From Nitrososphaerota archaeon (GTDB lineage: Archaea; Thermoproteota; Nitrososphaeria; Nitrososphaerales; Nitrosopumilaceae): 13,437 nucleotides of DNA. Numbering within the stretch: the first letter of the stretch is position 1; every line of letters starts with the position of its first letter. Below, one piece after another: positions 499 to 13,437 of this stretch. Both the position numbers and the translations under genes were made by a program. Under the pieces are notes generated by a model, which was not told the DNA's origin, did no database searches, and was given only the letters and a program-made list of their open reading frames with translations. The DNA is taken from assembly GCA_002317795.1 (NCBI GenBank), contig NVWC01000018.1, positions 16,713 through 30,149 on the forward strand, read 5' to 3'.

Positions 499-563
499 TA
501 AACAATTGTTATTCTAGCTGTTAACCTCTACTTTTTAGTAAGATTTAGTATTTTTACTAATTT

Positions 564-1694
564 GTGTTAGAATCAAACATTGAAAAACTAATTTCAGGAT
601 ATCTCGATTCTGTTTATGTAATATCTCATAGTCAAGCTTCAGTAGACTGTTACAAATCTGGTCTGAATCATTTCAACAAGTTTGTTCAATCAAAATATGA
701 AAAATCTCTAGAACAAATTCTTACTGCACTGAAAGATGATTCTATTGATAGATACAAAATATTTCAAGAATATGTAATCTATTTGGACAAGGAAGGAAAG
801 AAACCATCTTCAATCAAAATATTTGTGATAGCTCCAAAAGGCTTTGTAAAATATTGTGGCATCAAATTGTATAATGAAGACTTCAAAATGTCTGTAAAAC
901 TACCAAAAAGAATCCGTCAACGAGAAGAACCACTTACAAAAGAGATCATACTTCGATTACTCAATAATGTTTCAGCCAAGCTTAGAACCATTATCTTGGT
1001 TACCTCTTCTAGTGGAATGAGAATAGGCGAAACCACTCAATTGAAATTATCTGATATTGATTTTGATTCAAAACCAACTATGATTAGAATATGTGGTGTT
1101 ACTACTAAAACTCGAGAGTCTAGGGAAACTTTTCTTACTACTGAAGCTACAAATTCACTCAAAGACTATCTGACTAGATATTTTGATTGGAAAGAAAATG
1201 AGCCTAACAATTTACAAGATCTAGTGATTTTTGGAAGAACCTCAAAATCAAGAAAATCTATTGATGAGAGAAAGACAACTTTTCAGAAATCTAATTCTAG
1301 TGTATTGACTAATTCACTAAGAAGACATATTGAGAATATTCCTGAATTATCAAAACTTAATGAAAATGGACGCCTAATGGTGCATTTTCACGCCTTTCGC
1401 AAGTATTTCAGAACTGTTGTAGGTAATGCTGTAGGCAGAGATTTTGCAGAAGCTCTAATGGGACATCACTTCTATCTTGATACTTACTATAATTTGTCTG
1501 AGGAGAAAAAACGAGAAATGTATCTTCAAGCAGAACCGTTTCTTACAATTTCAGATTATGCACAAATTGAAAAAGATCTTCGTAGTGTAAAACAAAAACA
1601 AAAACAAATTGAAGAACAACACTTGGATCTAATTCAACTTATTCAAGAAGAACACGTGAAGCTTCCTGCAAGCTTACAAAAGTATGTGAAATAA
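564..1694 (+). CDS. Tyrosine recombinase / site-specific integrase 1
   Basis: Catalytic set is complete: R (SGMRIGE), K (TTKT), HxxR (HAFR), H (LMGH), Y (YLDTYY). It has an N-terminal core-binding region and a C-terminal coiled-coil tail. GTG start. Confidence 0.93.
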   Translation: MLESNIEKLISGYLDSVYVISHSQASVDCYKSGLNHFNKFVQSKYEKSLEQILTALKDDSIDRYKIFQEYVIYLDKEGKKPSSIKIFVIAPKGFVKYCGIKLYNEDFKMSVKLPKRIRQREEPLTKEIILRLLNNVSAKLRTIILVTSSSGMRIGETTQLKLSDIDFDSKPTMIRICGVTTKTRESRETFLTTEATNSLKDYLTRYFDWKENEPNNLQDLVIFGRTSKSRKSIDERKTTFQKSNSSVLTNSLRRHIENIPELSKLNENGRLMVHFHAFRKYFRTVVGNAVGRDFAEALMGHHFYLDTYYNLSEEKKREMYLQAEPFLTISDYAQIEKDLRSVKQKQKQIEEQHLDLIQLIQEEHVKLPASLQKYVK

Positions 1695-1695
1695 T

Positions 1696-2031
1696 ATGGG
1701 TCTTGAAGGTTTTTTTGTTGATGCATGTGTTCCACAAGGAGTTAAAGAATTATCTTCTGAACAATATTTGTCTAGTATTGATGTTCTTTCCCGTGACGCC
1801 TCTGATGATTGTATTTTTGAAGAAGCAAAGAAACGAAATAGAATTGTTATTACAAAAGATATTGGTTTTGTAATTCGAACATTAATTAAAAATGAAAATA
1901 TTATTCTTCAAACTTTTGATGGAAAACGTATTCTTTTATCTGGAATTACTATTGATGAAAACTGTCCTTCCAAAAGTCCAGACAAACGTACAAAATATTT
2001 GATTAAAAATAATGAAATCATGATTCCTTAA
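1696..2031 (+). CDS. DUF5615 / Mut7-C-like PIN-domain protein (putative RNase toxin)
   Basis: FFVDACV ... ASDDCIFEEAKKRNRIVITKDIGF matches the FLxDxx...D..I...A....RI.IT.D..F pattern of this PIN-like family. Confidence 0.72.
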   Translation: MGLEGFFVDACVPQGVKELSSEQYLSSIDVLSRDASDDCIFEEAKKRNRIVITKDIGFVIRTLIKNENIILQTFDGKRILLSGITIDENCPSKSPDKRTKYLIKNNEIMIP

Positions 2032-2203
2032 ATGGATATTGTGGCAATTCTTGCCAACTCTAGGTTACACTTTTTGTCATCAAAAATCCAAAATTAGGCA
2101 TACTATACATTTACATAATTTCTAGAAACACATCACTTGATTTCATTTTGGTAATATTCTGTATGTTTAGATTTTCATTAATACTCACAATCATAATATT
2201 TAC

Positions 2204-2410
2204 ATGGCTAGCACAGGTGTTGAACTAGATAAAATTACTACAAAACAATTTGATGATTTTTTGATTATTCCATTTTCAAAAGAATGGCTTTCTTTGAATG
2301 ATGGTAAACAAATTGAATTTTCAATTCATGTAACAGAAAATAATTTGGTCCTATCCGGAAAGCTGGCTAGCTTGGATAGAACCAAGGATGTTGATACTAA
2401 TGTTATGTGA
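2204..2410 (+). CDS. Small AbrB/MazE-like (swapped-hairpin) DNA-binding protein, putative
   Basis: DDFLIIPFSKEW...DGKQIEFSIHVTENNLVLS resembles the AbrB pattern (I.IPK.W....G..VEF......L.L). Pattern recognition only. Confidence 0.5.
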   Translation: MASTGVELDKITTKQFDDFLIIPFSKEWLSLNDGKQIEFSIHVTENNLVLSGKLASLDRTKDVDTNVM

Positions 2411-2654
2411 ATTAAATCATAAAAAAGTAGCATTAGATTACTCATTTTATTCAGTAAAAATACGTCTAAAATGTCCATTTTGTGCCTACAATTCAACTAA
2501 AAAATCCATTACTTACACAACTCTGAGACAATTAGTATTTCATATATCCAATCAACATGATAACGAGGGTAACTATTACCAATTTTCATTTCATGATATC
2601 AAATTTTTGATGCAAATGATTGCACTTTCAAAAGAATGGAGATTATTAGATTGA
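2388..2654 (+). CDS. C2H2-type zinc-finger protein
   Basis: CPFC-x14-LRQLVFHISNQH motif. It overlaps the upstream ORF; the real start may be ATG 2400. Confidence 0.6.
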   Translation: MLILMLCELNHKKVALDYSFYSVKIRLKCPFCAYNSTKKSITYTTLRQLVFHISNQHDNEGNYYQFSFHDIKFLMQMIALSKEWRLLD

Positions 2655-2714
2655 AATTAAAAATTAAAACGAAACCCGTTTGGTATCCTGTAATTAAAAG
2701 AGAATTTCCTGAAG

Positions 2715-4430
2715 ATGAAAAAGATTGTGGATATTGAAACTATGACTCTAGAAGAAGAAAATAAATTTAAAAATGAAAAAGGTTTTGATTTATCTTTTGT
2801 AATTGAAGAACTACAAAAGATACCAAATGCAGCAAAAGAAAAAATGAATCATTCAAAGAAGAGACCAATTACTCTAATTGAGGATTATCTGAATACAAAA
2901 ATTAAAAATGATCTACTACTTGTAAAAAGACTTCTCAGAGTTTATTTTTCTGCATACACTAATGAACCCATTAATTGCATTTTATTATCTCCAACTTCAG
3001 AAGGAAAGACATACTCTACAGTTCAGGTTTCAGAAATTTTTCCAAAAGATGATGTCATTAGTATAGGTAGGTTATCTCCTACCGCATTAATTCACCAATA
3101 TGGGGAATTAGTTGATCCAGATGGTTATCCTCTTAAAGAACGATTGGAAAAATTAGAACTAGATATTTTCAACGCTGAATCTGAACAGGATAAAAAATCA
3201 ATTCATGAGTTAAAACAAATCAAAACAGACATGATGAAAACTGCTAAAAATTTGGTTGATCTTACTCATAAAATTATTTTATTTCTAGATAACCCTAGTC
3301 CTCAAACTTATGAGATGCTCAAACCTATAATGTCTCATGACAAAAAAGAGATTCTTTACAAGACTACAAAAAGTGATGGTTCTTTGAGCGTAAAAGAGAC
3401 CATAATCAGGGGATGGCCTGCAACTATAATCTGTTCTGCCAAAAATGAAGCAAAAAATGAGGTATGGGCTGAAATTGCGTCAAGGGAAATTATCCTTTCT
3501 CCGAATACTGATGTAACAAAATATCATGCAGCAAACAAACTCACTTCTCAAAAAATGGGAATGCCTTCAATTCTAGAAAACAACAATAATGAAAAAAGAA
3601 TAATTGAGTTTTATGTTGAGAGATTACGATCATCTCTAGTAAAATTATGTGTTGATGGTAATCCTATAGTGAATCCATTTTATGAAATGTTGGCAGATTT
3701 GTTTCCTCATAATGAAGGAATTACAATGAGGCATTTCAAAAGATTGTTATCATTTGTAAACATTGAGACTTTGGTAAATGCAAAATCCAATATGAAGATA
3801 GAATTTATGCTCCATGAAAGAAAAGAAAAGAAAGTTTTTGTTGTTACATCATTAAAGATGATTGAAGATGCAATTAAGATATTGGGAAATATTTCAACCA
3901 TTGCACCAGAAAAAATAAAATTTTACAATGAAGTTTTTCTTCCATTAATCCAAGAAAAATCAACAACACAAATTTCACTTGGTGAAGATCCTCAAAGAAG
4001 ATTGGCTGAGACATTAGATAACATAACTGTAACAAAAGAAGAAGCTGCAGAAAAATTTACCAAAGTATTTCATAAAGTGATAACTCCTAAAGCAATTCAA
4101 GAATACTATTTGAAACAATTATCCGATGAAGGAATCCTTGATTGGAAAAAGAATGAGGATAACAAAAAACAATATCTTTATTTTCTTTCTAGTAAATTAT
4201 CCATTCATAATTTGACAACTGTCGTACGACAACTAAACGATAGACACGACAAAGATTTTCTATACGTATGGTCATGCCTAGTGAAACCTTTTCAATTGTC
4301 GTGTAAAATGGGGAAAATGATTAGGATATTTGATAACTCAAATTCAAACATCACATATCAAGAATTCAAAAAGAAAATTTCTGGTAGTATTCTAGATTTA
4401 CACGACAATCAAGGAGATAAAAATGACTGA
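2715..4430 (+). CDS. AAA+/P-loop ATPase with C-terminal winged helix; putative replication helicase/initiator of the element
   Basis: Walker A-like ILLSPTSEGKT, Walker B-like IILFLDN, sensor-1-like GWPATIICSA, Arg-finger-like EIASR, and MRHFKRLL. C-terminal wHTH-like segment TKEEAAEKF...IQEYYLKQLSDEGILDW. No primase domain is visible. Confidence 0.7.
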   Translation: MKKIVDIETMTLEEENKFKNEKGFDLSFVIEELQKIPNAAKEKMNHSKKRPITLIEDYLNTKIKNDLLLVKRLLRVYFSAYTNEPINCILLSPTSEGKTYSTVQVSEIFPKDDVISIGRLSPTALIHQYGELVDPDGYPLKERLEKLELDIFNAESEQDKKSIHELKQIKTDMMKTAKNLVDLTHKIILFLDNPSPQTYEMLKPIMSHDKKEILYKTTKSDGSLSVKETIIRGWPATIICSAKNEAKNEVWAEIASREIILSPNTDVTKYHAANKLTSQKMGMPSILENNNNEKRIIEFYVERLRSSLVKLCVDGNPIVNPFYEMLADLFPHNEGITMRHFKRLLSFVNIETLVNAKSNMKIEFMLHERKEKKVFVVTSLKMIEDAIKILGNISTIAPEKIKFYNEVFLPLIQEKSTTQISLGEDPQRRLAETLDNITVTKEEAAEKFTKVFHKVITPKAIQEYYLKQLSDEGILDWKKNEDNKKQYLYFLSSKLSIHNLTTVVRQLNDRHDKDFLYVWSCLVKPFQLSCKMGKMIRIFDNSNSNITYQEFKKKISGSILDLHDNQGDKND

Positions 4431-4476
4431 ATTTAGGCATAAAATTCATCAAAATACCATTTGTTCTGTTTGTCGT
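4214..4476. repeat. Cluster of ACGACAA motifs including a 13-bp inverted repeat
   Basis: ACGACAA occurs at 4226(+), 4246(+), 4296(-), 4402(+) and 4470(-). Palindrome TGTCGTACGACA at 4220-4231. ATTGTCGTGTAAA (4295-4307) is the exact reverse complement of TTTACACGACAAT (4397-4409). Confidence 0.6.
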
Positions 4477-4518
4477 ATTTCAATCGTAAATCAACAAGGA
4501 GATCCTGTCAATTGTTAG
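4423..4518 (+). CDS. 31-aa mini-ORF with CxxC (MTEFRHKIHQNTICSVCRISIVNQQGDPVNC)
   Basis: SD-like AAGGAGA at 4411-4417. It overlaps the ATPase stop and the probable TTG start of recombinase 2. Not in the ORF track. Confidence 0.35.
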   Translation: MTEFRHKIHQNTICSVCRISIVNQQGDPVNC

Positions 4519-5432
4519 TTGAACAAAAACTAGATCAAATTCTTCAGGAACTACAACTAATCAAAAATCATCTCAAGATTGTACCTGACAAGGATCTTGA
4601 AATCAAAGATCTTAAATCAAGTATATCTGAATATGAAACATTTGCAAAAGACGAACTAAAACTAAATGCAAAAACAATAACCAATCAACTTTCTACTCTT
4701 TCTAGATTTTTACATCATTGTAAGGGTTCAGTTAACAAAGAATCTGTAAAATCTTATCTGAATTCTAATGATTCTGATTCTTGGAAATCAAATCAACTAA
4801 AGGCTTTACGAAGATATTGTAGAGATTTTCTTCACTTGGGAAATTGGATTAATGAATTTCAATTTTTAAAACCAAGGGCAAAAATAAAGAAAATTCCTTC
4901 AGACTCAAAACTAGTTTCATTTTTCCTTGAGTTAGAAAATCAAGAACAATTAATTTTTCTGACGTTGTTAAACACTGGATTTCGTATAGGCGAAGTACTA
5001 GATCTTAAGATCAAGAACATTGATTTTGAAATCAACATGATGGATGCATCAAATATTCATGAAGGTGATACTAAACATTCATGGATTAGCTTTGTAACTA
5101 GTCAGACAATTGATTTTATCAATGAATATCTTAGTGAAAGATTCTCTGATGGAATAGATCCTGAAGCAAATCTATTTACAATTCATTCAAGATCACTTCA
5201 GAACACATTCAAGAGTATATCTAAAAAAACTGGAATTGTTATCAATCCTCATCTATTACGAACTATCTTTTCTGAAAAATGTACTAAAGCTAATCTCAAA
5301 GACAAGTACATTGATGCATTTTGTGGTAGAGTATCCCAAGGTGTTCTAGCTACAAACTACACAGACTATTCCTCTGAAGCTCTTAGAGTACAATATGATA
5401 AAATAGAATCTCTTTTGGAATTAGATTTGTAG
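4512..5432 (+). CDS. Tyrosine recombinase / integrase 2 (archaeal type with GR in place of LGH)
   Basis: R (TGFRIGE), K (GDTKH), HxxR (HLLR), IDAFCGR and catalytic Y in LATNYTDY. The ORF track starts it at 4461, but TTG 4512 follows an SD-like AAGGAGA (4496-4502) and is the more likely start. Confidence 0.9.
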   Translation: MLVEQKLDQILQELQLIKNHLKIVPDKDLEIKDLKSSISEYETFAKDELKLNAKTITNQLSTLSRFLHHCKGSVNKESVKSYLNSNDSDSWKSNQLKALRRYCRDFLHLGNWINEFQFLKPRAKIKKIPSDSKLVSFFLELENQEQLIFLTLLNTGFRIGEVLDLKIKNIDFEINMMDASNIHEGDTKHSWISFVTSQTIDFINEYLSERFSDGIDPEANLFTIHSRSLQNTFKSISKKTGIVINPHLLRTIFSEKCTKANLKDKYIDAFCGRVSQGVLATNYTDYSSEALRVQYDKIESLLELDL

Positions 5433-5720
5433 CTGTAGCTACAAAAGCTTCAATTTGAAACATTTTCTGACACAAATCTTGTAGCTGTTTTGAAACATGT
5501 CTCAGATGTATCTACTTTGTAGCTATGTTTCTAGGCGTAACACTTAGCTACATTTTGAAAAATGTTGTGAGGTAAAGCACTTCATGTATCTGTTTGTAGC
5601 TGTTTGTAGCTGTTTGTAGCTGTTTGTAGCTGTTTGTAGCTGTTTGTTGCTCACAACACTCTGCTTTGTAGCTGATTTCATATGTTTCACTTCATGAATC
5701 TAGTTGAATTTTGTAGCTGA
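5426..5720. repeat. TGTAGCT repeat field including a 10-bp tandem array (TGTTTGTAGC x5 plus variants)
   Basis: Five exact tandem units at 5591-5640 and a variant TGTTTGTTGC at 5641-5650. TGTAGCT also at 5428, 5434, 5480, 5518, 5667 and 5712; reverse copies at 5437 and 5546. Palindrome TTTGTAGCT-GT-AGCTACAAA at 5426-5445. Confidence 0.95.
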
Positions 5721-5748
5721 TTCCTAGTCACAAAATTTAGCTTCATGT

Positions 5749-5776
5749 TTGCATAATCTATAGTAGGATTGTGAAA
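5749..5776. other. 11-6-11 putative recombination site A
   Basis: TTGCATAATCT ATAGTA GGATTGTGAAA. Confidence 0.65.
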
Positions 5777-5831
5777 GAATGGTAAATTGTATTGGAACAT
5801 GTGTTATTGATTATTTTTAGGGTCGACCTTT

Positions 5832-5859
5832 TTTCATAACCCTTAGGTAGAATACGTAA
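5832..5859. other. 11-6-11 putative recombination site B
   Basis: TTTCATAACCC TTAGGT AGAATACGTAA. Confidence 0.65.
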
Positions 5860-5912
5860 ACTTTGTGACTAGTATTAAATTCAGTATTCTTAAAATTTTG
5901 TACAACCTTTTT

Positions 5913-6065
5913 CTACTTGAGGCCTTTACGTAAAATTTTGTTTATAGTATCTGAATAGCTTACTGATTTTGTAGATTGCATGTTTAGTTTTGCTTGGAGT
6001 AATTTTAATTTCTTATCCAAATCATCATCCATTACAACTGAACACTTTTTGCCATCCTTATTCAC
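5913..6065 (-). CDS. Small ribbon-helix-helix-like DNA-binding protein (50 aa; possibly frameshifted at the 5' end)
   Basis: Manual translation from GTG 6065: MNKDGKKCSVVMDDDLDKKLKLLQAKLNMQSTKSVSYSDTINKILRKGLK*. It resembles the small thaumarchaeal family with the pattern ..DDDLDKKL...QAK....S.SYS...N..LRK.LK. Not in the ORF track. Confidence 0.65.
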   Translation of the reverse strand: MNKDGKKCSVVMDDDLDKKLKLLQAKLNMQSTKSVSYSDTINKILRKGLK

Positions 6066-6285
6066 TTACGTATTTGTAAAATATCAAACAATGTATGCTT
6101 ATTTTGAGCATAACTCTTCTCTTATTCTACTCTTTTCTTAGTATTGTTGATGACTTCTTGGTGGTAGTGCATGAAAGTATTTTCCTTCTGCCACCAATCC
6201 CGATAATTTACTATTTTCTAAATTTTATACGACTTTTTTTATGATCTCTAGATTCATAAATTGTATCTTCTAATATCCACTCATT

Positions 6286-7424: not shown

Positions 7425-7452
7425 TTTCGTAATCTGTAGTTAGATTACGAAA
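7425..7452. other. 11-6-11 putative recombination site D (perfect arms)
   Basis: TTTCGTAATCT GTAGTT AGATTACGAAA; the arms are exact reverse complements. An extra half-site TTTCGTAATCC is at 7399-7409. Confidence 0.75.
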
Positions 7453-7922: not shown

Positions 7923-7950
7923 TTTCGTAATCTTACTATGGATTATGAAG
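7923..7950. other. 11-6-11 putative recombination site E
   Basis: TTTCGTAATCT TACTAT GGATTATGAAG, between convergent stops (P-II and the DUF1059-like gene). Confidence 0.7.
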
Positions 7951-9501: not shown

Positions 9502-9573
9502 TGTGAATTTAGTATTAAAAATATTTTGCACTGATTTTACTAAAAATTTACAAAACACATTACTGATAATCTC

Positions 9574-9625
9574 TAAAAATAGAATGCCCCCGATTTACTC
9601 GTGAGAATACGACGGTTGTCGTAAT
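9574..9625 (+). repeat. Left terminal inverted repeat
   Basis: TAAAAATAGAATGCCCCCGATTTACTCGTGAGAATACGACGGTTGTCGTAAT. Confidence 0.95.
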
Positions 9626-9653
9626 ACTTTAGAATGAAGATCATTGTAACATA

Positions 9654-10943
9654 TTATGGAACATGAATTAAATTTATTTTATCTCTAAATTCTCGCCGAA
9701 TGATCTTTCTAGCAATGTGTAATTTACCTTCACTATCCTCAATTTCCTGGACACTAGGCCAAAAGATTGCTATGTGAAAATAAATCAAATCTTTCAGAAT
9801 TTTTTCACTTTGTATGTATACATTCATCATTAATCCTCTTAATTGCTCAGAATCCCTTTCAGATTCAAACTTGTTTTGATATTCTTCTAGTAATTTTAGA
9901 TAAGCAGAGATTCTGGAGATTTCAGTTGATATTGTAAATCCAAGTGCAAGTAACAAATATCGAATCAGATGATTTTTTTGAGTTACATAATCTAATCGAA
10001 TTAAACCCAATCGTTTTCCAATTTCTCTTAAATCATTCATCCCAAATTCATGATTTAGTATATCTTCAGGAGGTGTCATCAAACATTTTCCATATAATCT
10101 ATATTCTAAAGGTCCTGAAGAATAACCTTGTTCTTTTAGATGAATATCTAATGCAGTATCACTTGTTTTTTCTAAAACAAGAGATACAAGATCTTTGATT
10201 GGGTCCTCTGAAGAATTTACAATTATGCCATAAGGTGTGATTATACCAATTGAACGATGTTCTTCATCTTTGATATCGATAAATTGATTTTCTATTAAAA
10301 CAATGAACAAATTTTTAATGTCATCATCAGTACCATATATTGAAATTAATTGTTGAATTTCATCAGGAGAATAATTTTTGTTGATTAATAAATAATTTGC
10401 TAAGAATTTAGCATTATCACAAAAATGAGTTAAAGTTTCTTTTGTTACATATGCGGATAATAATTCAACTAAATCGTCTGCATCAAATCCACTTCTTTCT
10501 GCAATTGATCTGGTAATCCCTAAAGGTCTCACAACAGCTCGATGATGTTGGATTAAACTTGGAATTTGTTCATTTTGGATTAATTCTGGCAACAATTTTT
10601 CATAGTCTTTTAGATTTGAATGAGAAATTAAAATTCTTGTTAAATCGCCAACGTTAGATTTTGTAAATTTCCATTTTTTCTTATTTTGACTTAACTTCTC
10701 AGCAATAATTACAGATTCTTCTTTAGAAAATGCAGATAGTCCATCATTAATGAGATCTTTTTCTATGATTTCATCAAATGATGAAAGACCATACATCTTT
10801 TTTGAAAAGTTTGCTTCGTTTCCAGAATTAATTATTTGTTCAATTAATTTTTGATAGTTTGTAGATTTTGGTATTTTGAGATTTAAATTTTTGTTAACCC
10901 ATTCAAATAATCCGGCCTTACTATTTACTCGTAACCTAATCAC
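9654..10943 (-). CDS. Hypothetical 429-aa protein with repeated SAP/HeH-like helical modules; possibly C-terminally truncated
   Basis: Long ORF with GTG start. DLREIGKRLGL...QKNHLIRYLL is SAP/HeH-like. The stop lies 28 bp from the left TIR. Confidence 0.7.
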   Translation of the reverse strand: MIRLRVNSKAGLFEWVNKNLNLKIPKSTNYQKLIEQIINSGNEANFSKKMYGLSSFDEIIEKDLINDGLSAFSKEESVIIAEKLSQNKKKWKFTKSNVGDLTRILISHSNLKDYEKLLPELIQNEQIPSLIQHHRAVVRPLGITRSIAERSGFDADDLVELLSAYVTKETLTHFCDNAKFLANYLLINKNYSPDEIQQLISIYGTDDDIKNLFIVLIENQFIDIKDEEHRSIGIITPYGIIVNSSEDPIKDLVSLVLEKTSDTALDIHLKEQGYSSGPLEYRLYGKCLMTPPEDILNHEFGMNDLREIGKRLGLIRLDYVTQKNHLIRYLLLALGFTISTEISRISAYLKLLEEYQNKFESERDSEQLRGLMMNVYIQSEKILKDLIYFHIAIFWPSVQEIEDSEGKLHIARKIIRREFRDKINLIHVP

Positions 10944-11256
10944 CCGGATAATTTCACCATATTGGTGATTATTGGAGTTATTTTTTTTGATCTATAACAT
11001 CAATAGAATTTTTATCGGTTTTTTCCATTATGGGCTAGTTTCTCCTCGTAATTTCATATTAATTTTAGCATCATAAAAGTATGAAAGTATTCCTCAGTTA
11101 TTTTTCAAGATGATGAAAAATAGAATTATATCTTATAGTAGAATTCAGTTTGCTAATTAAAAATTCTTGAACCTGTGATCTCCAATACATCTCCAGTTGT
11201 ATGGGGTGGAGGGAGTATTGCGTCAGCTTCCAAAATTAATTACGTTACTATAAAAT

Positions 11257-11275
11257 AAAAATAGGATCTATTTTT
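11257..11275 (-). terminator. Possible terminator hairpin after the DoxX gene
   Basis: AAAAATAG-GAT-CTATTTTT with T-tracts, just past the DoxX stop. Weak AT-rich stem. Confidence 0.3.
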
Positions 11276-11287
11276 TATGAACCGTTC

Positions 11288-11740
11288 TTAAGTCGGTTGA
11301 ACTTCGGCATCCTTGCTTTTTGAGATCCGATAATCCAAACCGAACTTTCCTGAGCCATAAAGCAATAACATTATTGCAATACCAATTAGTGCAGGATCCT
11401 TCCATATTGCGGGCCCCATTGTAAAATCAAATCCAAACATCACCTGTGCACCTATTAGAACAACGAGCTGATACGAAACGGCTATCCTCGTAATCAAACC
11501 TATCCAAATTAATACTCCTGAAAGAATTTCTAGACTGCCAATAAGAAGAGCCATGTTTGGAGCCATCATTGGATCGATTCCAGCCATGTTTTGTAACATC
11601 ATTCCAAAAGCTGCAGGATCAGATACTTTGTTTATTCCTGCCCAAAGAAATCCAGCACCTAAGCCCAATCTAACAGCAAGTAAACCAACGTTTATGAGAT
11701 TTTTTGATGGTGGCGTCTGGAAAATGGTTCTTATTGTCAT
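11288..11740 (-). CDS. DoxX family membrane protein
   Basis: LLAVRLGLGAGFLWAGINK...EILSGVLIWIGLITRIA...WKD.AL...LLLYGSGKFGLD. Confidence 0.9.
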   Translation of the reverse strand: MTIRTIFQTPPSKNLINVGLLAVRLGLGAGFLWAGINKVSDPAAFGMMLQNMAGIDPMMAPNMALLIGSLEILSGVLIWIGLITRIAVSYQLVVLIGAQVMFGFDFTMGPAIWKDPALIGIAIMLLLYGSGKFGLDYRISKSKDAEVQPT

Positions 11741-12093
11741 TTCTTATCACTCACTTTATTCAATTTAGCAACAATTTCATCAAATACAAATTCACTATTC
11801 TCAAATAATGGTGAAACACAATATATTACATCATAATAATTTCCAATTTTTCTTACAAGATTATTTTTTTCAAGAACTTTTAGATGGTGTTGAATCGCTT
11901 TGTATTCAATACCAAGTTCTATTGCTAATTGGTTTCTATTGCTTGACATTTTTCTGAGTGCTGACATAATTCTAATTCTGTTAGGCGCTCCTCTACTTTC
12001 AACAAAGAGACCCCAAAACACTATTTTTGTCTGAAGAGGACTTTTGGCTTTAATTGTTCTAGTATTTAGAATTTGCATTTTCCACACTTCCAC
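11737..12093 (-). CDS. ArsR-like winged-helix transcriptional regulator
   Basis: SRGAPNRIRIM...NQLAIELGIEYKAIQHHLKVLEKNNLV. 4-bp ATGA overlap with the DoxX gene. Confidence 0.88.
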   Translation of the reverse strand: MEVWKMQILNTRTIKAKSPLQTKIVFWGLFVESRGAPNRIRIMSALRKMSSNRNQLAIELGIEYKAIQHHLKVLEKNNLVRKIGNYYDVIYCVSPLFENSEFVFDEIVAKLNKVSDKK

Positions 12094-12158
12094 ATATCCA
12101 ATAATTGACTACGTTATGAAATTACTTAATGATGATCAAACGTACACTGAAAGTTTGT

Positions 12159-12476
12159 TTAATTCATAGTTCTTAATTTGTGATACAGATTGTATTCAGT
12201 TCTAACATCACCAATTGCATATTTGTAAAAAATAGAATCAGAGCTTCCATTAGATCTGACAAATTGATTGTATGCATCTAAAATTGCCAAACCGCCACTG
12301 ATTAGATCCAAAACTCTTTTACGGCAAAATTCTAAAGACCAACCTTTGATACTGGTAGTTTTAGCACCTTCCATTTTTGCACGTTCGATAACATCTAACT
12401 TATTTTTGTATTGTAGGATTTTTACTTTTAGGACTTCTATCAATTTATGCTGGAAGTAAGTTCTTTTCGGACGCAT
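12159..12476 (-). CDS. Hypothetical protein (may be a fragment)
   Basis: 105-aa ORF with no recognisable motif. Confidence 0.4.
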   Translation of the reverse strand: MRPKRTYFQHKLIEVLKVKILQYKNKLDVIERAKMEGAKTTSIKGWSLEFCRKRVLDLISGGLAILDAYNQFVRSNGSSDSIFYKYAIGDVRTEYNLYHKLRTMN

Positions 12477-12582
12477 TTTTCATTGCATCATTAATCGGAT
12501 TAATTATTTGGATCGTTAACGTATCCGCAAGGATGATTTTACCGTCTGTATTTTTCTAGATGTATACGTTAATGTTTTAATC

Positions 12583-12634
12583 ATTACGACAACCGTCGTA
12601 TTCTCACGACTAAATCGGGGGCATTCTATTTTTA
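12583..12634 (-). repeat. Right terminal inverted repeat
   Basis: ATTACGACAACCGTCGTATTCTCACGACTAAATCGGGGGCATTCTATTTTTA; single mismatch to the left copy at 12610 versus 9598. Confidence 0.95.
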
Positions 12635-12844
12635 CTGATAATCTCTAAAAATACAAAGCCCAGTTTTTGTGTGTAAAAAGTTGATACTAACCTAAACTAT
12701 AACGTGAGTTTGTGTGATTATTCATTTAAGATATAAAATCACATGATTGATGAATTAATTCATCCCGAAGACGAAGATCTTTTTAAACAAATTTCATTTT
12801 TTTCAATAGGATTTTTATCTAATGATGAGAAACTATTGTGAAAA

Positions 12845-13437
12845 ATGCCCATAAAGACTGAATTGCATTGTCATAACTCATTTTCAAATTTTCATCTTGG
12901 ATACAAAGAGCCCCCACATGATTGTGATATTTCGATCAGAGAACAACTAGAACAATCATATCAATTGGGATTGGATACAATTTTTGTTACAAATCATAAC
13001 ACTTTGGATGGATATGATCAGTTATTAGAATACAAAAATGATCATACCAAATTTAAAAACATTGAAGTTTTTCCAGCTGAGGAGATCACAACGAATACTG
13101 GTGCACATGTTTTAGCATATGGAATTCATGATACAATTCCTGGAGGGATTTCTCTTGATGAGGTAATTGATGAGGTATCAAAACAGGGTGGTGTAACGTC
13201 TGCCCCTCATCCATTTAGTCTAATTGATGCTCTACGTGAAAGTGCCAAAAAATGTGATATGGTTGAAGTTTTCAATAGCAATAATGTTGATTTGGTGTCT
13301 AATGTACGTGCAGCTCAATTTGCATTGGATAATAATATGATTCAGGTGGCAGGTAGTGATTCACATGTAATATCTACTCTTGGTAGATGTGTTAACGTAA
13401 TTGATTCTGAAAATAATCTTGATGATATTTTACATGC
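12845..13437 (+). CDS. PHP-domain metal-dependent phosphoesterase (3' truncated by window edge)
   Basis: Manual translation: MPIKTELHCHNSFS...IFVTNHNT...PAEEITT..GAHVLAYG...SAPHPF...VEVFNS...AGSDSH. Missing from the ORF track because there is no stop in the window. Confidence 0.92.
   Translation, partial: MPIKTELHCHNSFSNFHLGYKEPPHDCDISIREQLEQSYQLGLDTIFVTNHNTLDGYDQLLEYKNDHTKFKNIEVFPAEEITTNTGAHVLAYGIHDTIPGGISLDEVIDEVSKQGGVTSAPHPFSLIDALRESAKKCDMVEVFNSNNVDLVSNVRAAQFALDNNMIQVAGSDSHVISTLGRCVNVIDSENNLDDILH

What the first reader, a model, noticed from the sequence alone, without database searches (positions are those of the whole stretch)
9560..12661. Transposase-less 3.06-kb cargo element with 52-bp TIRs and an 11-bp duplication whose target mimics its own end
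Seen in sequence: TIRs 9574-9625 and 12583-12634 match at 51/52, flanked by CTGATAATCTC on both sides. The direct repeat extends to 22 exact bp (9560-9581 = 12632-12653) and 28/30 (to 9589/12661), because the right flank TAAAAATACAAAGCCC resembles the TIR start TAAAAATAGAATGCCC. Excision through the core would give a circle junction that is a 52-11-52 near-perfect palindrome. The cargo (hypothetical, DoxX, ArsR-like, hypothetical) has no recognisable mobility gene. Inference: either a recently inserted non-autonomous, Pack-MULE/MIC-like gene carrier moved in trans, or a site-specific integrant with attP-like arms. Casposons are known in Nitrosopumilus and have TIR plus TSD ends, so a casposon derivative should also be tested.
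Basis: partly seen in the sequence, partly recalled or inferred. Interest (0 to 1): 0.8.

Follow-up and report, generated by a model that had tools for sequence, protein, structure and literature searches.

The report
Casposase-less mini-casposon carrying passenger genes
The 3-kb element is a stripped-down relative of the casposons, the Cas1-driven transposons of marine ammonia-oxidising archaea: it keeps their ends and target-site duplication but has lost its own integrase and polymerase genes and now holds only passenger genes.

Summary
The repeats are real. [quoted passage not shown]

The ends begin AAAAATAGAATGCCCCC. The same terminus bounds casposons that encode Cas1 and protein-primed PolB in related genomes. 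One of these sits at the 3' end of an Iso_dh (leuB-like) gene with TSD ACTGACAATCTCT. Another has the 13-bp TSD published for the Ca. N. koreensis family-1 casposon, whose apparent repeat is also 22 bp.

The element has no Cas1 and no PolB. Its 429-aa ORF is a C-terminally truncated copy of a ~600-aa gene. On a metagenome contig that gene lies 1.6 kb from a casposon PolB. So the element is an internal-deletion, non-autonomous casposon derivative.

The "target that mimics the end" is explained by a decayed TIR of an older casposon just beyond the right TSD. The assembled genome holds only fragments of a family-1 casposase.

Five more Cas1-less units with TIRs and TSDs (0.9-5.1 kb) occur in five other genomes of the genus. 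Whether this one moved in trans after the deletion is open.

The casposon lead is supported. The attP reading is not.

The parts
9523..9544 (+). Flank homologous to the sequence downstream of tRNA-Glu(ctc) in genome G017.
   Evidence: Window 9523-9629 matches L018 11008-10902 at 87% over 108 nt. The tRNA-Glu lies at L018 11038-11112. The sequence is shown.
9545..9561 (+). Leader: 17 nt identical to the last codons of the genome's Iso_dh (leuB-like) gene. Here it is a copy outside that gene, a pseudo-target.
   Evidence: Window 9545-9591 equals C28:5867-5913 at 47/47. The C28 gene is Iso_dh, 1.8e-101. In the window a stop at 9541-9543 leaves only ten codons of that reading frame.
9562..9574 (+). 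Left copy of the 13-bp target-site duplication, ACTGATAATCTCT.
   Evidence: Identical to 12634-12646. It has A1, T3, ATAA at positions 5-8 and T13, as in the mapped N. koreensis TSD ATTGATAAAGAGT (PMC8464041).
9575..9625 (+). Left terminal inverted repeat, 51 bp, starting AAAAATAGAATGCCCCC.
   Evidence: 50/51 to the right TIR. The same terminus is found on Cas1+pPolB casposons in G104, G012, G081 and G108.
9626..9644 (+). Subterminal casposon sequence shared with other copies. The deletion junction lies between 9645 and 9669.
   Evidence: Window 9572-9644 matches C31 and C18 at 93%. Window 9545-9644 matches the G086 element at 94%. Homology to the full-length cargo gene on L080 starts at 9670.
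9654..10943 (-). 429-aa ORF: a C-terminally truncated copy of a 592-608-aa protein of unknown family. The truncated end abuts the left TIR.
   Evidence: It aligns to residues 30-451 of P0002 (608 aa) at 76% identity. No hit in Pfam, NCBIfam or PADLOC.
11288..11740 (-). DoxX-family membrane protein (passenger gene).
   Evidence: PF07681, 3.8e-10. A paralog at 59% lies on C22.
11737..12093 (-). ArsR/SmtB-type winged-helix regulator (passenger gene). It overlaps the DoxX start by 4 nt.
   Evidence: PF01022, 8.6e-9. NF033788, 2.2e-8. Paralogs at 59-62% lie on C10 and C26.
12159..12476 (-). 105-aa ORF with no relatives found.
   Evidence: Only a sub-threshold Pfam hit, RNase_H_2 at 0.058. No match in four casposons or elsewhere in the genome.
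12583..12633 (-). Right terminal inverted repeat, 51 bp.
12634..12646 (+). Right copy of the 13-bp target-site duplication.
12647..12690 (+). Decayed left TIR of an older casposon (tandem insertion). This is why the flank resembles the element's own end.
   Evidence: Local alignment to the G085 TIR variant over 43 nt scores 40. None of 2000 shuffles reached that score.

Best explanation
The element (9575-12633) is a non-autonomous derivative of a family-1 casposon, the type found in Nitrosopumilus.

**How it got there (inferred from the anatomy).** A Cas1-family casposase joined the 3' ends of its two TIRs to the two strands of a specific target, 13 bp apart. Gap repair then produced the duplication ACTGATAATCTCT.

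**The target.** It has the form leader + TSD that this casposon lineage uses at the 3' end of an Iso_dh (leuB-like) gene. Here the target is a 30-bp copy of that gene end. It lies inside a mosaic genomic island, next to the remnant of an earlier casposon.

**How it lost autonomy.** An internal deletion between the left subterminal region and the middle of a ~600-aa cargo gene removed the casposase, the protein-primed PolB and the 3' part of that gene. What remains is the TIRs, one truncated gene, a DoxX-ArsR pair and a small ORF.

**What is shown and what is inferred.**
- Shown: the anatomy; homology of the ends and target to Cas1+pPolB elements; truncation of the cargo gene; absence of an intact family-1 casposase and of pPolB in the assembled genome.
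- Inferred: the integration chemistry, and the single-deletion origin.
- Open: whether the deletion came before the last integration (a true trans-mobilised mini-casposon) or happened in place. I put trans-mobilisation at about 0.3.
For: **1. The ends belong to a repeat family tied to Cas1.**
- The TIR terminus occurs at 8 exact places in this genome.
- One of these, C27:16571, lies 0.77 kb from a 161-aa family-1 Cas1 fragment.

**2. In related genomes, inverted pairs of the same terminus enclose Cas1 and pPolB, with identical 13-bp TSDs on both sides.**
- G104: 13.1 kb at the ef-2 3' end. Its TSD is ATTGATAAAGAGT, the same as the published N. koreensis TSD.
- G012: 14 kb.
- G081: 8.2 kb.
- G108: 5.9 kb at the Iso_dh 3' end, with leader ...TTTACCAAGCACATT and TSD ACTGACAATCTCT.
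- Pfam for G104 and G108: Cas1 1.4e-49 and 2.3e-47; DNA_pol_B_2 1.4e-23 and 1.6e-23; Iso_dh 2.3e-97; EFG_C.
- Cas1 lies inside the TIR pairs of G012 and G081. Their PolB-like regions match L080's PolB by tblastx.

**3. G086 carries a near-identical left end at its real Iso_dh gene.** The TIR plus subterminal region is 94% identical over 100 nt, and the TSD is the same, ACTGATAATCTCT.

**4. The published family-1 case shows the same layout.** PMC8464041 (passages read) reports an apparent 22-bp repeat of which 13 bp is the true TSD, an ATAA ruler at TSD positions 5-8, and critical A1 and T13. The window has a 22-bp exact repeat, ATAA at 5-8, A1 and T13.

**5. The interior has no Cas1 or pPolB.**
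- Pfam finds neither.
- tblastn with G108 and G104 Cas1 and pPolB finds nothing on contig C15.
- The element shares only its termini with four autonomous casposons.

**6. There is a deletion signature.**
- The 429-aa ORF matches residues 30-451 of 592-608-aa homologs.
- Its truncated end faces the left TIR.
- On metagenome contig L080 the 79%-identical full-length gene lies 1.6 kb from a 595-aa pPolB that is 63% identical to the G104 pPolB. The small genes that accompany pPolB in casposons are there too.

**7. The right flank is a decayed casposon TIR**. Tandem casposon insertions are described in PMC6563490 (passages).

**8. Artificial mini-casposons can be moved.** Constructs of 1-4 kb with 20-bp TIRs are integrated by the family-1 casposase in vitro (PMC8464041). 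A mini-casposon moved in vivo in M. mazei (PMC10359463, passages).
Against: - TSD position 11 is T here. A11 was essential for the N. koreensis enzyme. The Iso_dh-targeting G108 casposon also has T11, so this may be lineage-specific.
- The leader ends ATT, not TTT.
- The target is not the Iso_dh gene itself but a 30-bp copy of its end in an island. How that copy arose is unexplained.
- No intact family-1 casposase and no pPolB were found in the 95.6%-complete assembly. No present-day partner is therefore identified. The only intact Cas1 (C28, 413 aa) is most like the solved chain 6opm (4.4e-72) and shares 25% identity over 126 aligned residues with the family-1 fragment.
- The cargo occurs once in this genome. 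The 429-aa protein was found in 1 of 121 genus genomes, this one only. There is no copy-number evidence for mobility.
- No empty site and no excision joint were seen. Contigs cannot show absence.
- The left junction is not bridged by a single unitig.
Confidence: 0.85

Rival explanations
1. The element is a site-specific integrant moved by a tyrosine recombinase. The 22-bp direct repeats would be attL and attR, and the inverted arms would be the two halves of a palindromic attP.
For: - Two Phage_integrase genes lie in the window, at 564-1694 (2.6e-14) and 4461-5432 (2.2e-12).
- The whole region after 502 is an insertion relative to G007.
- Fragments of gene 3' ends typical of att sites are nearby: the cofE-like end at 12714-12802, and tRNA-Glu 3' fragments beside TIR copies on C31 and C18.
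Against: - The same termini and 13-bp duplications bound elements whose only recombinase is Cas1.
- The repeat breaks down as in the experimentally mapped casposon site.
- No integrase lies within or next to the element. The nearest is over 4 kb away, in a different module.
- An attP made of 51-bp perfect inverted arms around an 11-13-bp core is not a layout I know for tyrosine recombinases (my own knowledge).
Confidence: 0.04
2. The element is an ordinary IS-derived MITE or composite transposon moved by a DDE transposase unrelated to casposons.
For: It has TIRs plus a TSD and no transposase, which is the generic layout of non-autonomous DNA transposons.
Against: - No DDE transposase is associated with any of the TIR copies examined.
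- Every complete TIR pair with a recombinase gene that I examined had Cas1: G104, G012, G081, G108 and G122.
- The target is sequence-specific and sits at gene 3' ends, as described for casposons.
Confidence: 0.03
3. The layout is an assembly artefact: short repeats (the 47-nt leader/TSD/TIR stretch and the 51-nt TIRs) were joined wrongly in a metagenome-assembled genome.
For: - The genome has 37 contigs with scattered N.
- The 47-nt stretch is repeated exactly on C28.
- No single Logan unitig bridges 9570-9584.
- Three other places in the window coincide with contig ends of 99-103 nt.
Against: - The interior with the inner 41 nt of both TIRs is one unitig. The right TIR-TSD-flank is another (X1).
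- Pieces from two further runs, one from another study, agree at 0-1 differences over the TIR-proximal parts.
- Contig-end overlaps of 99-103 nt suggest a final k-mer near 99. That is longer than these repeats (my inference).
- A wrong left partner would move the element to the real Iso_dh gene. It would not change what the element is.
Confidence: 0.04

Closest known systems
Family-1 casposons of Nitrosopumilus, such as the Ca. N. koreensis AR1 casposon (PMC4046053 seen in a search listing only; PMC6563490 and PMC8464041 read as passages)
   Same: - TIR terminus AAAAATAGAATGCCCC(C).
- 13-bp TSD of the form A..GAT.A....T with ATAA at positions 5-8.
- An apparent 22-bp direct repeat.
- A target at the 3' end of a protein-coding gene.
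- Tandem insertion next to an older copy.
   Different: - No casposase, no protein-primed PolB, and none of the conserved small genes.
- 3.06 kb, against the 4.6-14 kb of the Cas1-encoding elements seen here.
- TSD position 11 is T, not A. The leader ends ATT, not TTT.
- The target type is the Iso_dh gene end, not ef-2. Here it is a displaced 30-bp copy of that end.
Solo-TIRs and inactive casposon remnants in Methanosarcina mazei and Methanococcoides burtonii (PMC4779613, passages read)
   Same: A casposon-derived sequence that has lost the core genes.
   Different: - Those remnants are single TIRs, or elements without TIRs and TSDs.
- This one keeps both TIRs (50/51) and an intact TSD, and encloses passenger genes. 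In principle it is still a casposase substrate.
Artificial mini-casposons: 1-4 kb between 20-bp TIRs, family 1, in vitro (PMC8464041); and a mini-casposon in vivo in M. mazei, family 2 (PMC10359463). Passages read.
   Same: TIR-cargo-TIR with no casposase in cis, in the same size range. Integration duplicates the 13-bp target.
   Different: Those are laboratory constructs supplied with the enzyme. This is a natural element with no identified enzyme source in its genome.
Non-autonomous cargo-carrying DNA transposons (MITEs, Pack-MULEs)
   Same: Works like them in outline: the ends are kept, the transposase is lost, and host-like genes lie inside.
   Different: - A different transposase superfamily (Cas1).
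- Strict target specificity.
- Single copy.
- The cargo appears to be left over from a larger element rather than captured between the ends.

Membership tests
Casposon (autonomous, family 1) | Encodes a Cas1-family casposase between the TIRs. | tested here: not met
   No PF01867 hit among the four ORFs. tblastn with G108 and G104 Cas1 gives no hit on contig C15. The genome-wide PF01867 search hits only C28 and C27.
Casposon (autonomous, family 1) | [quoted passage not shown] | tested here: not met
   No hit in the genome with the G108 pPolB or with the G108 and G104 pPolB by tblastn. The positive control on L080 gave 63% identity over 597 aa.
Casposon (autonomous, family 1) | Terminal inverted repeats homologous to those of Cas1-encoding elements. 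| tested here: met
   The TIRs match 50/51 within the element. The first 16-17 nt are shared with G104, G012, G081 and G108. The left end is 94% identical over 100 nt to the G086 element at its Iso_dh gene.
Casposon (autonomous, family 1) | Target-site duplication of the length and form made by the family-1 casposase (13 bp). | tested here: met
   ACTGATAATCTCT lies on both sides. The 13-bp frame is shared by all eight complete TIR-TSD pairs listed. The published mapped TSD is 13 bp. That the enzyme made this particular duplication is inferred.
Casposon (autonomous, family 1) | Insertion at a specific leader+TSD site at the 3' end of a gene. | tested here: inconclusive
   The leader and TSD are identical to the end of the genome's Iso_dh gene (47/47 including 17 nt of TIR). 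G108 and G086 have such insertions at the real gene. Here the site is a 30-bp copy away from that gene.
MITE-like or other non-autonomous transposon | Multiple dispersed copies of the same transposase-less unit. | tested here: not met
   Each cargo gene is present once in the genome at 100% identity. The 429-aa protein was found in 1 of 121 genus genomes. Only the TIRs are repeated.
Tyrosine-recombinase integrative element | An integrase gene within the element, and att direct repeats without TIRs. | tested here: not met
   No integrase lies between 9575 and 12633. The element has 51-bp TIRs. The window's two integrases lie at 564-1694 and 4461-5432.

The most novel reading that the evidence does not exclude
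Cas1-less mini-casposons may be a working class of trans-mobilised gene cassettes in marine ammonia-oxidising archaea.

- Casposases supplied by co-resident or incoming casposons would move TIR-bounded cargo. The cargo seen includes transporters, regulators, and defence-like TIR-domain, SRA-HNH and NERD genes.
- The cassettes would land in portable 28-30-bp 'leader + TSD' landing pads that have themselves spread to islands and other loci. Copies occur on C15, C29, C27 and C35 in this genome and next to tRNA-Glu in G017.
- The resulting arrays have the form leader-TSD-[TIR..TIR]-TSD-[TIR remnant]. That is a natural intermediate between a transposon insertion site and a leader-repeat array of the CRISPR type.
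Probability: 0.2. Interest if true: 0.75.

Novelty: new variant of a known kind. Interest (0 to 1): 0.5.

Why it matters
Casposons are the transposons from which the CRISPR adaptation machinery is thought to derive. Their biology has so far been described from complete elements, solo TIRs and laboratory mini-constructs.

This window shows a natural element with intact ends and duplication that has no casposase or polymerase and carries ordinary passenger genes. At least five similar Cas1-less units occur in five other genomes of the genus.

If casposases mobilise such units in trans, casposons would move host genes around in abundant marine archaea. [quoted passage not shown]

Two further points follow:
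- The Iso_dh (leuB-like) gene end is a second, recurrent casposon target besides ef-2. I found no paper that pairs the two terms (0 papers; no mention in PMC6563490).
- Short leader+TSD modules copied to other loci remain unexplained.

Tried and rejected
**RNA genes and known RNA families**
- No tRNA in the window.
- No Rfam family in the window or at three TIR loci, apart from one tRNA.
- I dropped the idea that the conserved GC-rich box is an RNA gene or a promoter once Cas1 linkage appeared.

**Island boundaries**
- I looked for a repeat of the IMPDH 3' end as an island att site. Nothing above chance.

**An autonomous partner in this genome**
- The intact Cas1 on C28 belongs to a different element with different ends (AGGTGTATTTT-type repeats).
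- It shares only 25% identity over 126 aligned residues with the family-1 fragment.

**Function of the 429-aa / ~600-aa cargo family**
- No hit in Pfam, NCBIfam or PADLOC.
- Atlas scores were at most 0.77, so no lead.
- No structure was predicted.

**Relatives of the cargo gene**
- None in genome contigs.
- Two metagenome loci. L081 (39% identity, 3.2 kb) was not analysed beyond blastn.

**Empty site or excision product**
- No joint across the TSDs in four runs of contigs.
- One X5 joint, 9609 to 12577 with a side of 26 nt, does not fit precise excision. I take it to be another TIR copy.
- Parts without cover and small-share runs were not interpreted.

**Literature**
- 'casposon' with 'non-autonomous' gave 14 papers, 11 listed. 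'casposon' with 'MITE' gave 7. Neither term pair appeared in any listed title, and the abstract beginnings shown did not mention such derivatives. Passages read in two papers do not describe them.
- Supplementary tables of PMC6563490 and PMC4779613 could list such remnants. I could not see them.


Full report
**Observation**

- Arms 9574-9625 and 12583-12634 are reverse complements at 51/52, and CTGATAATCTC lies outside both.
- A direct repeat of 22 exact bases, 28/30 in all, spans 9560-9589 and 12632-12661 (D7).
- This inverted pair is by far the longest of 210 in the window: 66 nt at 91%. The next is 34 nt at 71%.
- The four ORFs inside are a 429-aa protein with no family, DoxX, an ArsR-type regulator and a 105-aa ORF. 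No recombinase or transposase domain was found.

**The ends belong to a repeat family**

- The left junction recurs in the window's own genome. G000 has 37 contigs and is 95.6% complete. The window is C15:16713-30149.
- The 47 nt at 9545-9591 are identical to C28:5867-5913. That stretch is the last 30 nt of a 337-aa Iso_dh (leuB-like) gene (Pfam 1.8e-101) plus the 17 nt after its stop.
- Further copies of the arm, with or without this gene-end module, lie on C29, C27, C35, C1, and C31/C18 (two near-duplicate contigs). In relatives they lie in G017, G026, G023 and G012.
- In one search the 67-nt arm matched in 5 of 61 genomes, counting G000.

**Link to Cas1**

- A Pfam Cas1 search of the genome gave two hits.
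  - One is a 413-aa protein on C28 (2.7e-60).
  - The other is a 166-aa fragment on C27, 0.77 kb inside the C27 arm.
- The two share only 25% identity over 126 aligned residues. The long one is most like the solved chain 6opm (4.4e-72). I recall that entry as the Methanosarcina mazei family-2 casposase; the recollection comes from no call.
- Using the C27 fragment as query, 31 of 121 genomes of the genus (G000 included) have a match at E <= 1e-5. Many of these are open frames of 338-367 aa.

**Bona fide casposons have the same ends**

- I searched five complete genomes for the 15-nt terminus with up to 2 mismatches. Four of them held pairs that I examined. Three were inverted pairs enclosing the Cas1 genes:
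  - G012, 14 kb.
  - G104, 13.1 kb.
  - G081, 8.2 kb.
  - G108 held a head-to-head pair instead.
- Read out, every end has the form leader | 13-nt duplication | AAAAATAGAAT(G/C)CCCC....
- G104 lies at the 3' end of ef-2 (EFG_C). It has Cas1 (2.3e-47) and a DNA_pol_B_2 polymerase (1.6e-23). Its duplication, ATTGATAAAGAGT, is the one mapped experimentally for the Ca. N. koreensis AR1 family-1 casposon (PMC8464041, passages read).
- G108 has a 5.9-kb element directly after an Iso_dh gene (2.3e-97).
  - The gene ends ...EFTKHITDNL*.
  - ACTGACAATCTCT lies on both sides.
  - It holds Cas1 (356 aa, 1.4e-49) and pPolB (628 aa, 1.4e-23).
  - A second left TIR follows it.
- G086 has, at its own Iso_dh gene, the same duplication as the window. 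Its left end is 94% identical to the window's over 100 nt.

**Re-reading the boundaries**

- The paper reports that the N. koreensis element seemed to have an exceptionally long 22-bp duplication. Mapping showed that the first 4 bp belong to the leader and the last 5 bp to the flank, leaving a 13-bp TSD.
- In that TSD, A1, A11 and T13 matter, and ATAA at positions 5-8 acts as a ruler.
- The window has the same layout: CATT | ACTGATAATCTCT | AAAAATAG..., with a 22-bp exact repeat, A1, T3, ATAA at 5-8 and T13.
- Position 11 is T. It is also T in G108.
- I therefore read a 13-bp TSD (9562-9574 and 12634-12646) and 51-bp TIRs (9575-9625 and 12583-12633, 50/51).

**Why the target mimics the end**

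- The 44 nt after the right TSD align to a casposon TIR variant, the left TIR of the G085 element, over 43 nt. None of 2000 shuffles reached that score.
- At fixed position, 13 of 17 bases match the element's own TIR (P about 1.6e-5).
- The element therefore sits beside the remnant of an older casposon.
- Tandem casposon insertions at one target are described for this group (PMC6563490, passages).
- The same head-to-head TIR-TSD-TIR layout occurs at C1:49846-49891 and in G108.

**The element is a deletion derivative**

- It shares only its termini with four autonomous casposons by blastn, tblastx and tblastn.
- The 429-aa ORF has 12 relatives in the large protein database besides itself. Nine of these are 591-608 aa. 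It aligns to residues 30-451 of a 608-aa one at 76% identity, so about 157 C-terminal residues are missing.
- The gene is on the minus strand. Its truncated end therefore faces the left TIR, 28 nt away.
- A metagenome contig (L080, 8.4 kb) carries the gene at 79% DNA identity. The match runs from window 11092 down to 9670.
- On that contig the gene continues. It is followed 1.6 kb on by a 595-aa ORF that is 63% identical over its full length to the G104 pPolB, and by the small genes that lie upstream of pPolB in the four casposons. Pfam itself missed this polymerase.
- Subterminal casposon sequence reaches window 9644.
- One deletion with its junction between 9645 and 9669 would account for the loss of the casposase, the polymerase and the 3' part of the cargo gene. 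This is an inference.

**No partner in the genome**

- tblastn with the G108 and G104 Cas1 finds three pieces of a family-1 enzyme in G000:
  - the 161-aa C27 fragment (70% identical to G108's);
  - 30 residues at C28:7209-7298, which is 1.3 kb beyond the Iso_dh gene, so that site holds a decayed casposon too;
  - 25 residues at C28:19707-19781.
- It also weakly matches the C28 413-aa Cas1 (28-30% identity), the family-2-like enzyme already noted.
- pPolB is not found at all.
- The assembly is incomplete, so absence is not shown.

**Context**

- Relative to G007, the closest complete genome found, everything after the IMPDH stop (window 502) is an insertion. G007's sequence continues on G000 contig C10.
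- The island starts with a tyrosine recombinase and holds a second one.
- The PHP gene to the right of the element is preceded by an 88-nt decayed copy of the 3' end of a gene that I take to be cofE-like, judging from its translated end. That gene is intact on C20, and in G007 it sits directly before PHP.
- The 22 nt left of the leader match the sequence downstream of tRNA-Glu in G017. There the same leader-TSD-TIR follows as a solo end.
- The surroundings are thus a mosaic of mobile-element junctions. How a 30-bp copy of the Iso_dh gene end came to lie here is not explained.
- Similar 28-30-bp leader+TSD modules lie on C29, C27 and C35.

**The element is not alone**

- The terminus with up to 1 mismatch occurs in 67 of 121 genus genomes. 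This tally includes an unrelated coding-sequence match (...GAATGCC[T/A]C) that I did not remove.
- From the list I picked by eye six same-contig inverted pairs less than 6 kb apart and fetched them. I did not examine the G098 pair or pairs split over contigs.
- All six have matching 13-nt duplications.
- Five of the six are Cas1-less:
  - G085: 1.7 kb.
  - G086: 2.4 kb at Iso_dh, with a Na/sulfate-symporter-type transporter.
  - G003: 5.1 kb at ef-2, with TIR-domain, SRA-HNH and NERD proteins.
  - G143: 0.9 kb, inside a tandem array whose neighbouring unit fuses a Cas1 N-terminus to a pPolB C-terminus.
  - G080: 3.2 kb at ef-2, with only the last ~95 residues of pPolB.
- The sixth, G122 (4.6 kb), has both Cas1 and pPolB.

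**Is it mobile now?**

- For: intact TIRs and TSD. Laboratory mini-casposons of 1-4 kb are integrated by the family-1 enzyme in vitro, and one moved in vivo in M. mazei, where a circular TIR-TSD-TIR intermediate was hypothesised.
- Against, or open: a single copy, no cognate enzyme found, and no empty site or excision joint in contigs of four runs from three studies. Contigs cannot show rare forms.

**Assembly**

- One unitig covers 9585-12613 and another 12585-13200 in X1. X3 and X5 agree over the parts listed.
- The left junction rests on the assembly alone.

**Verdict**

- This is a casposon-derived, non-autonomous element: a new variant of a known kind.
The attP reading is not.
- Searches for 'casposon' with 'non-autonomous', with 'MITE', and with 'isopropylmalate dehydrogenase' found no description of such elements or of this target. 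Supplementary tables that I could not open might list some.

Noticed in passing
window 502-6226; G000:C10:44742-48873: Everything after the IMPDH stop codon is an insertion relative to G007, whose sequence continues on contig C10. The island begins with a 376-aa tyrosine recombinase (564-1694) and holds a second one (4461-5432). C10's last 103 nt equal window 6124-6226 in reverse, so the true path through the island may branch there.
   Followed up: partly
window 12714-12802 and 12845-13435; G000:C20:10639-10765: An 88-nt decayed copy of the 3' end of a gene I read as cofE-like precedes the PHP-domain gene. In G007 the intact gene and PHP are neighbours. In G000 the intact gene on C20 has no PHP after it. 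This looks like another gene-3'-end att fragment or a relocation.
   Followed up: partly
window 7426-7452 and 7923-7949 (also 5749, 5832); G000:C28 around 16300-19430: A palindromic motif of the form TTTCGTAATCT...AGATTACGAAA flanks the P-II gene as 27-nt inverted repeats. The ends of contigs C6 and C27 overlap exactly these places (99-103 nt). The same motif recurs in and beside the element with the 413-aa Cas1 on C28. It may be a cassette boundary or a repeated operator.
   Followed up: no
window 5575-5654: A tandem array of a 10-nt unit (TGTAGCTGTT), about seven copies, in an intergenic stretch.
   Followed up: no
G000:C28:19590-25176: A second Cas1 element of a different kind lies next to tRNA-Glu(ctc). 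It holds a 413-aa Cas1 most like PDB 6opm, a CcdA-like protein and a SAP-domain protein. Its ends carry repeated AGGTGTAT(T) motifs (34-nt inverted repeat at 74%). No PolB was seen.
   Followed up: partly
G000:C29:230-299, C27:16543-16587, C35:6883-6915; G017:C1:1390901-1391008: Short modules of 28-30 nt (TTTACAA.....ATT + 13-nt TSD-like + TIR start) copy the Iso_dh gene end at loci that are not that gene. In G017 the module lies about 53 nt downstream of tRNA-Glu. The copies start at the same point, which suggests that the module travels as a unit. The mechanism is unknown.
   Followed up: partly
G000:C31:84297-84366 = C18:2622-2691; G023:C47 (L012): The TIR is followed about 60 nt later by a partial tRNA-Glu 3' end and its downstream sequence. 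On C31 a second, ef-2-type leader/TSD/TIR-like stretch then follows. Casposon ends and tRNA att fragments are interleaved.
   Followed up: partly
G003:C19:56593-61699 (L085): A 5.1-kb Cas1-less, PolB-less unit bounded by TIRs and TSDs at the ef-2 3' end carries a TIR-domain protein, an SRA-HNH protein and a NERD nuclease. This is defence-like cargo.
   Followed up: partly
G143:C10:20199-21037 (L086 700-1537): The first 73 residues of a family-1 Cas1 run directly into the last ~200 residues of pPolB. This is a clear internal-deletion derivative, next to a 0.9-kb ORF-less mini unit in a tandem array.
   Followed up: partly
window 2715-4430; G000:C29:4510-6278: The 571-aa ORF with no Pfam family has a 75%-identical DNA copy on C29. 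C28 also holds a 571-aa ORF with no Pfam family, but blastn found no DNA match between it and the window. The second integrase has 70% copies on C11 and C32. The island modules are repeated in the genome.
   Followed up: no
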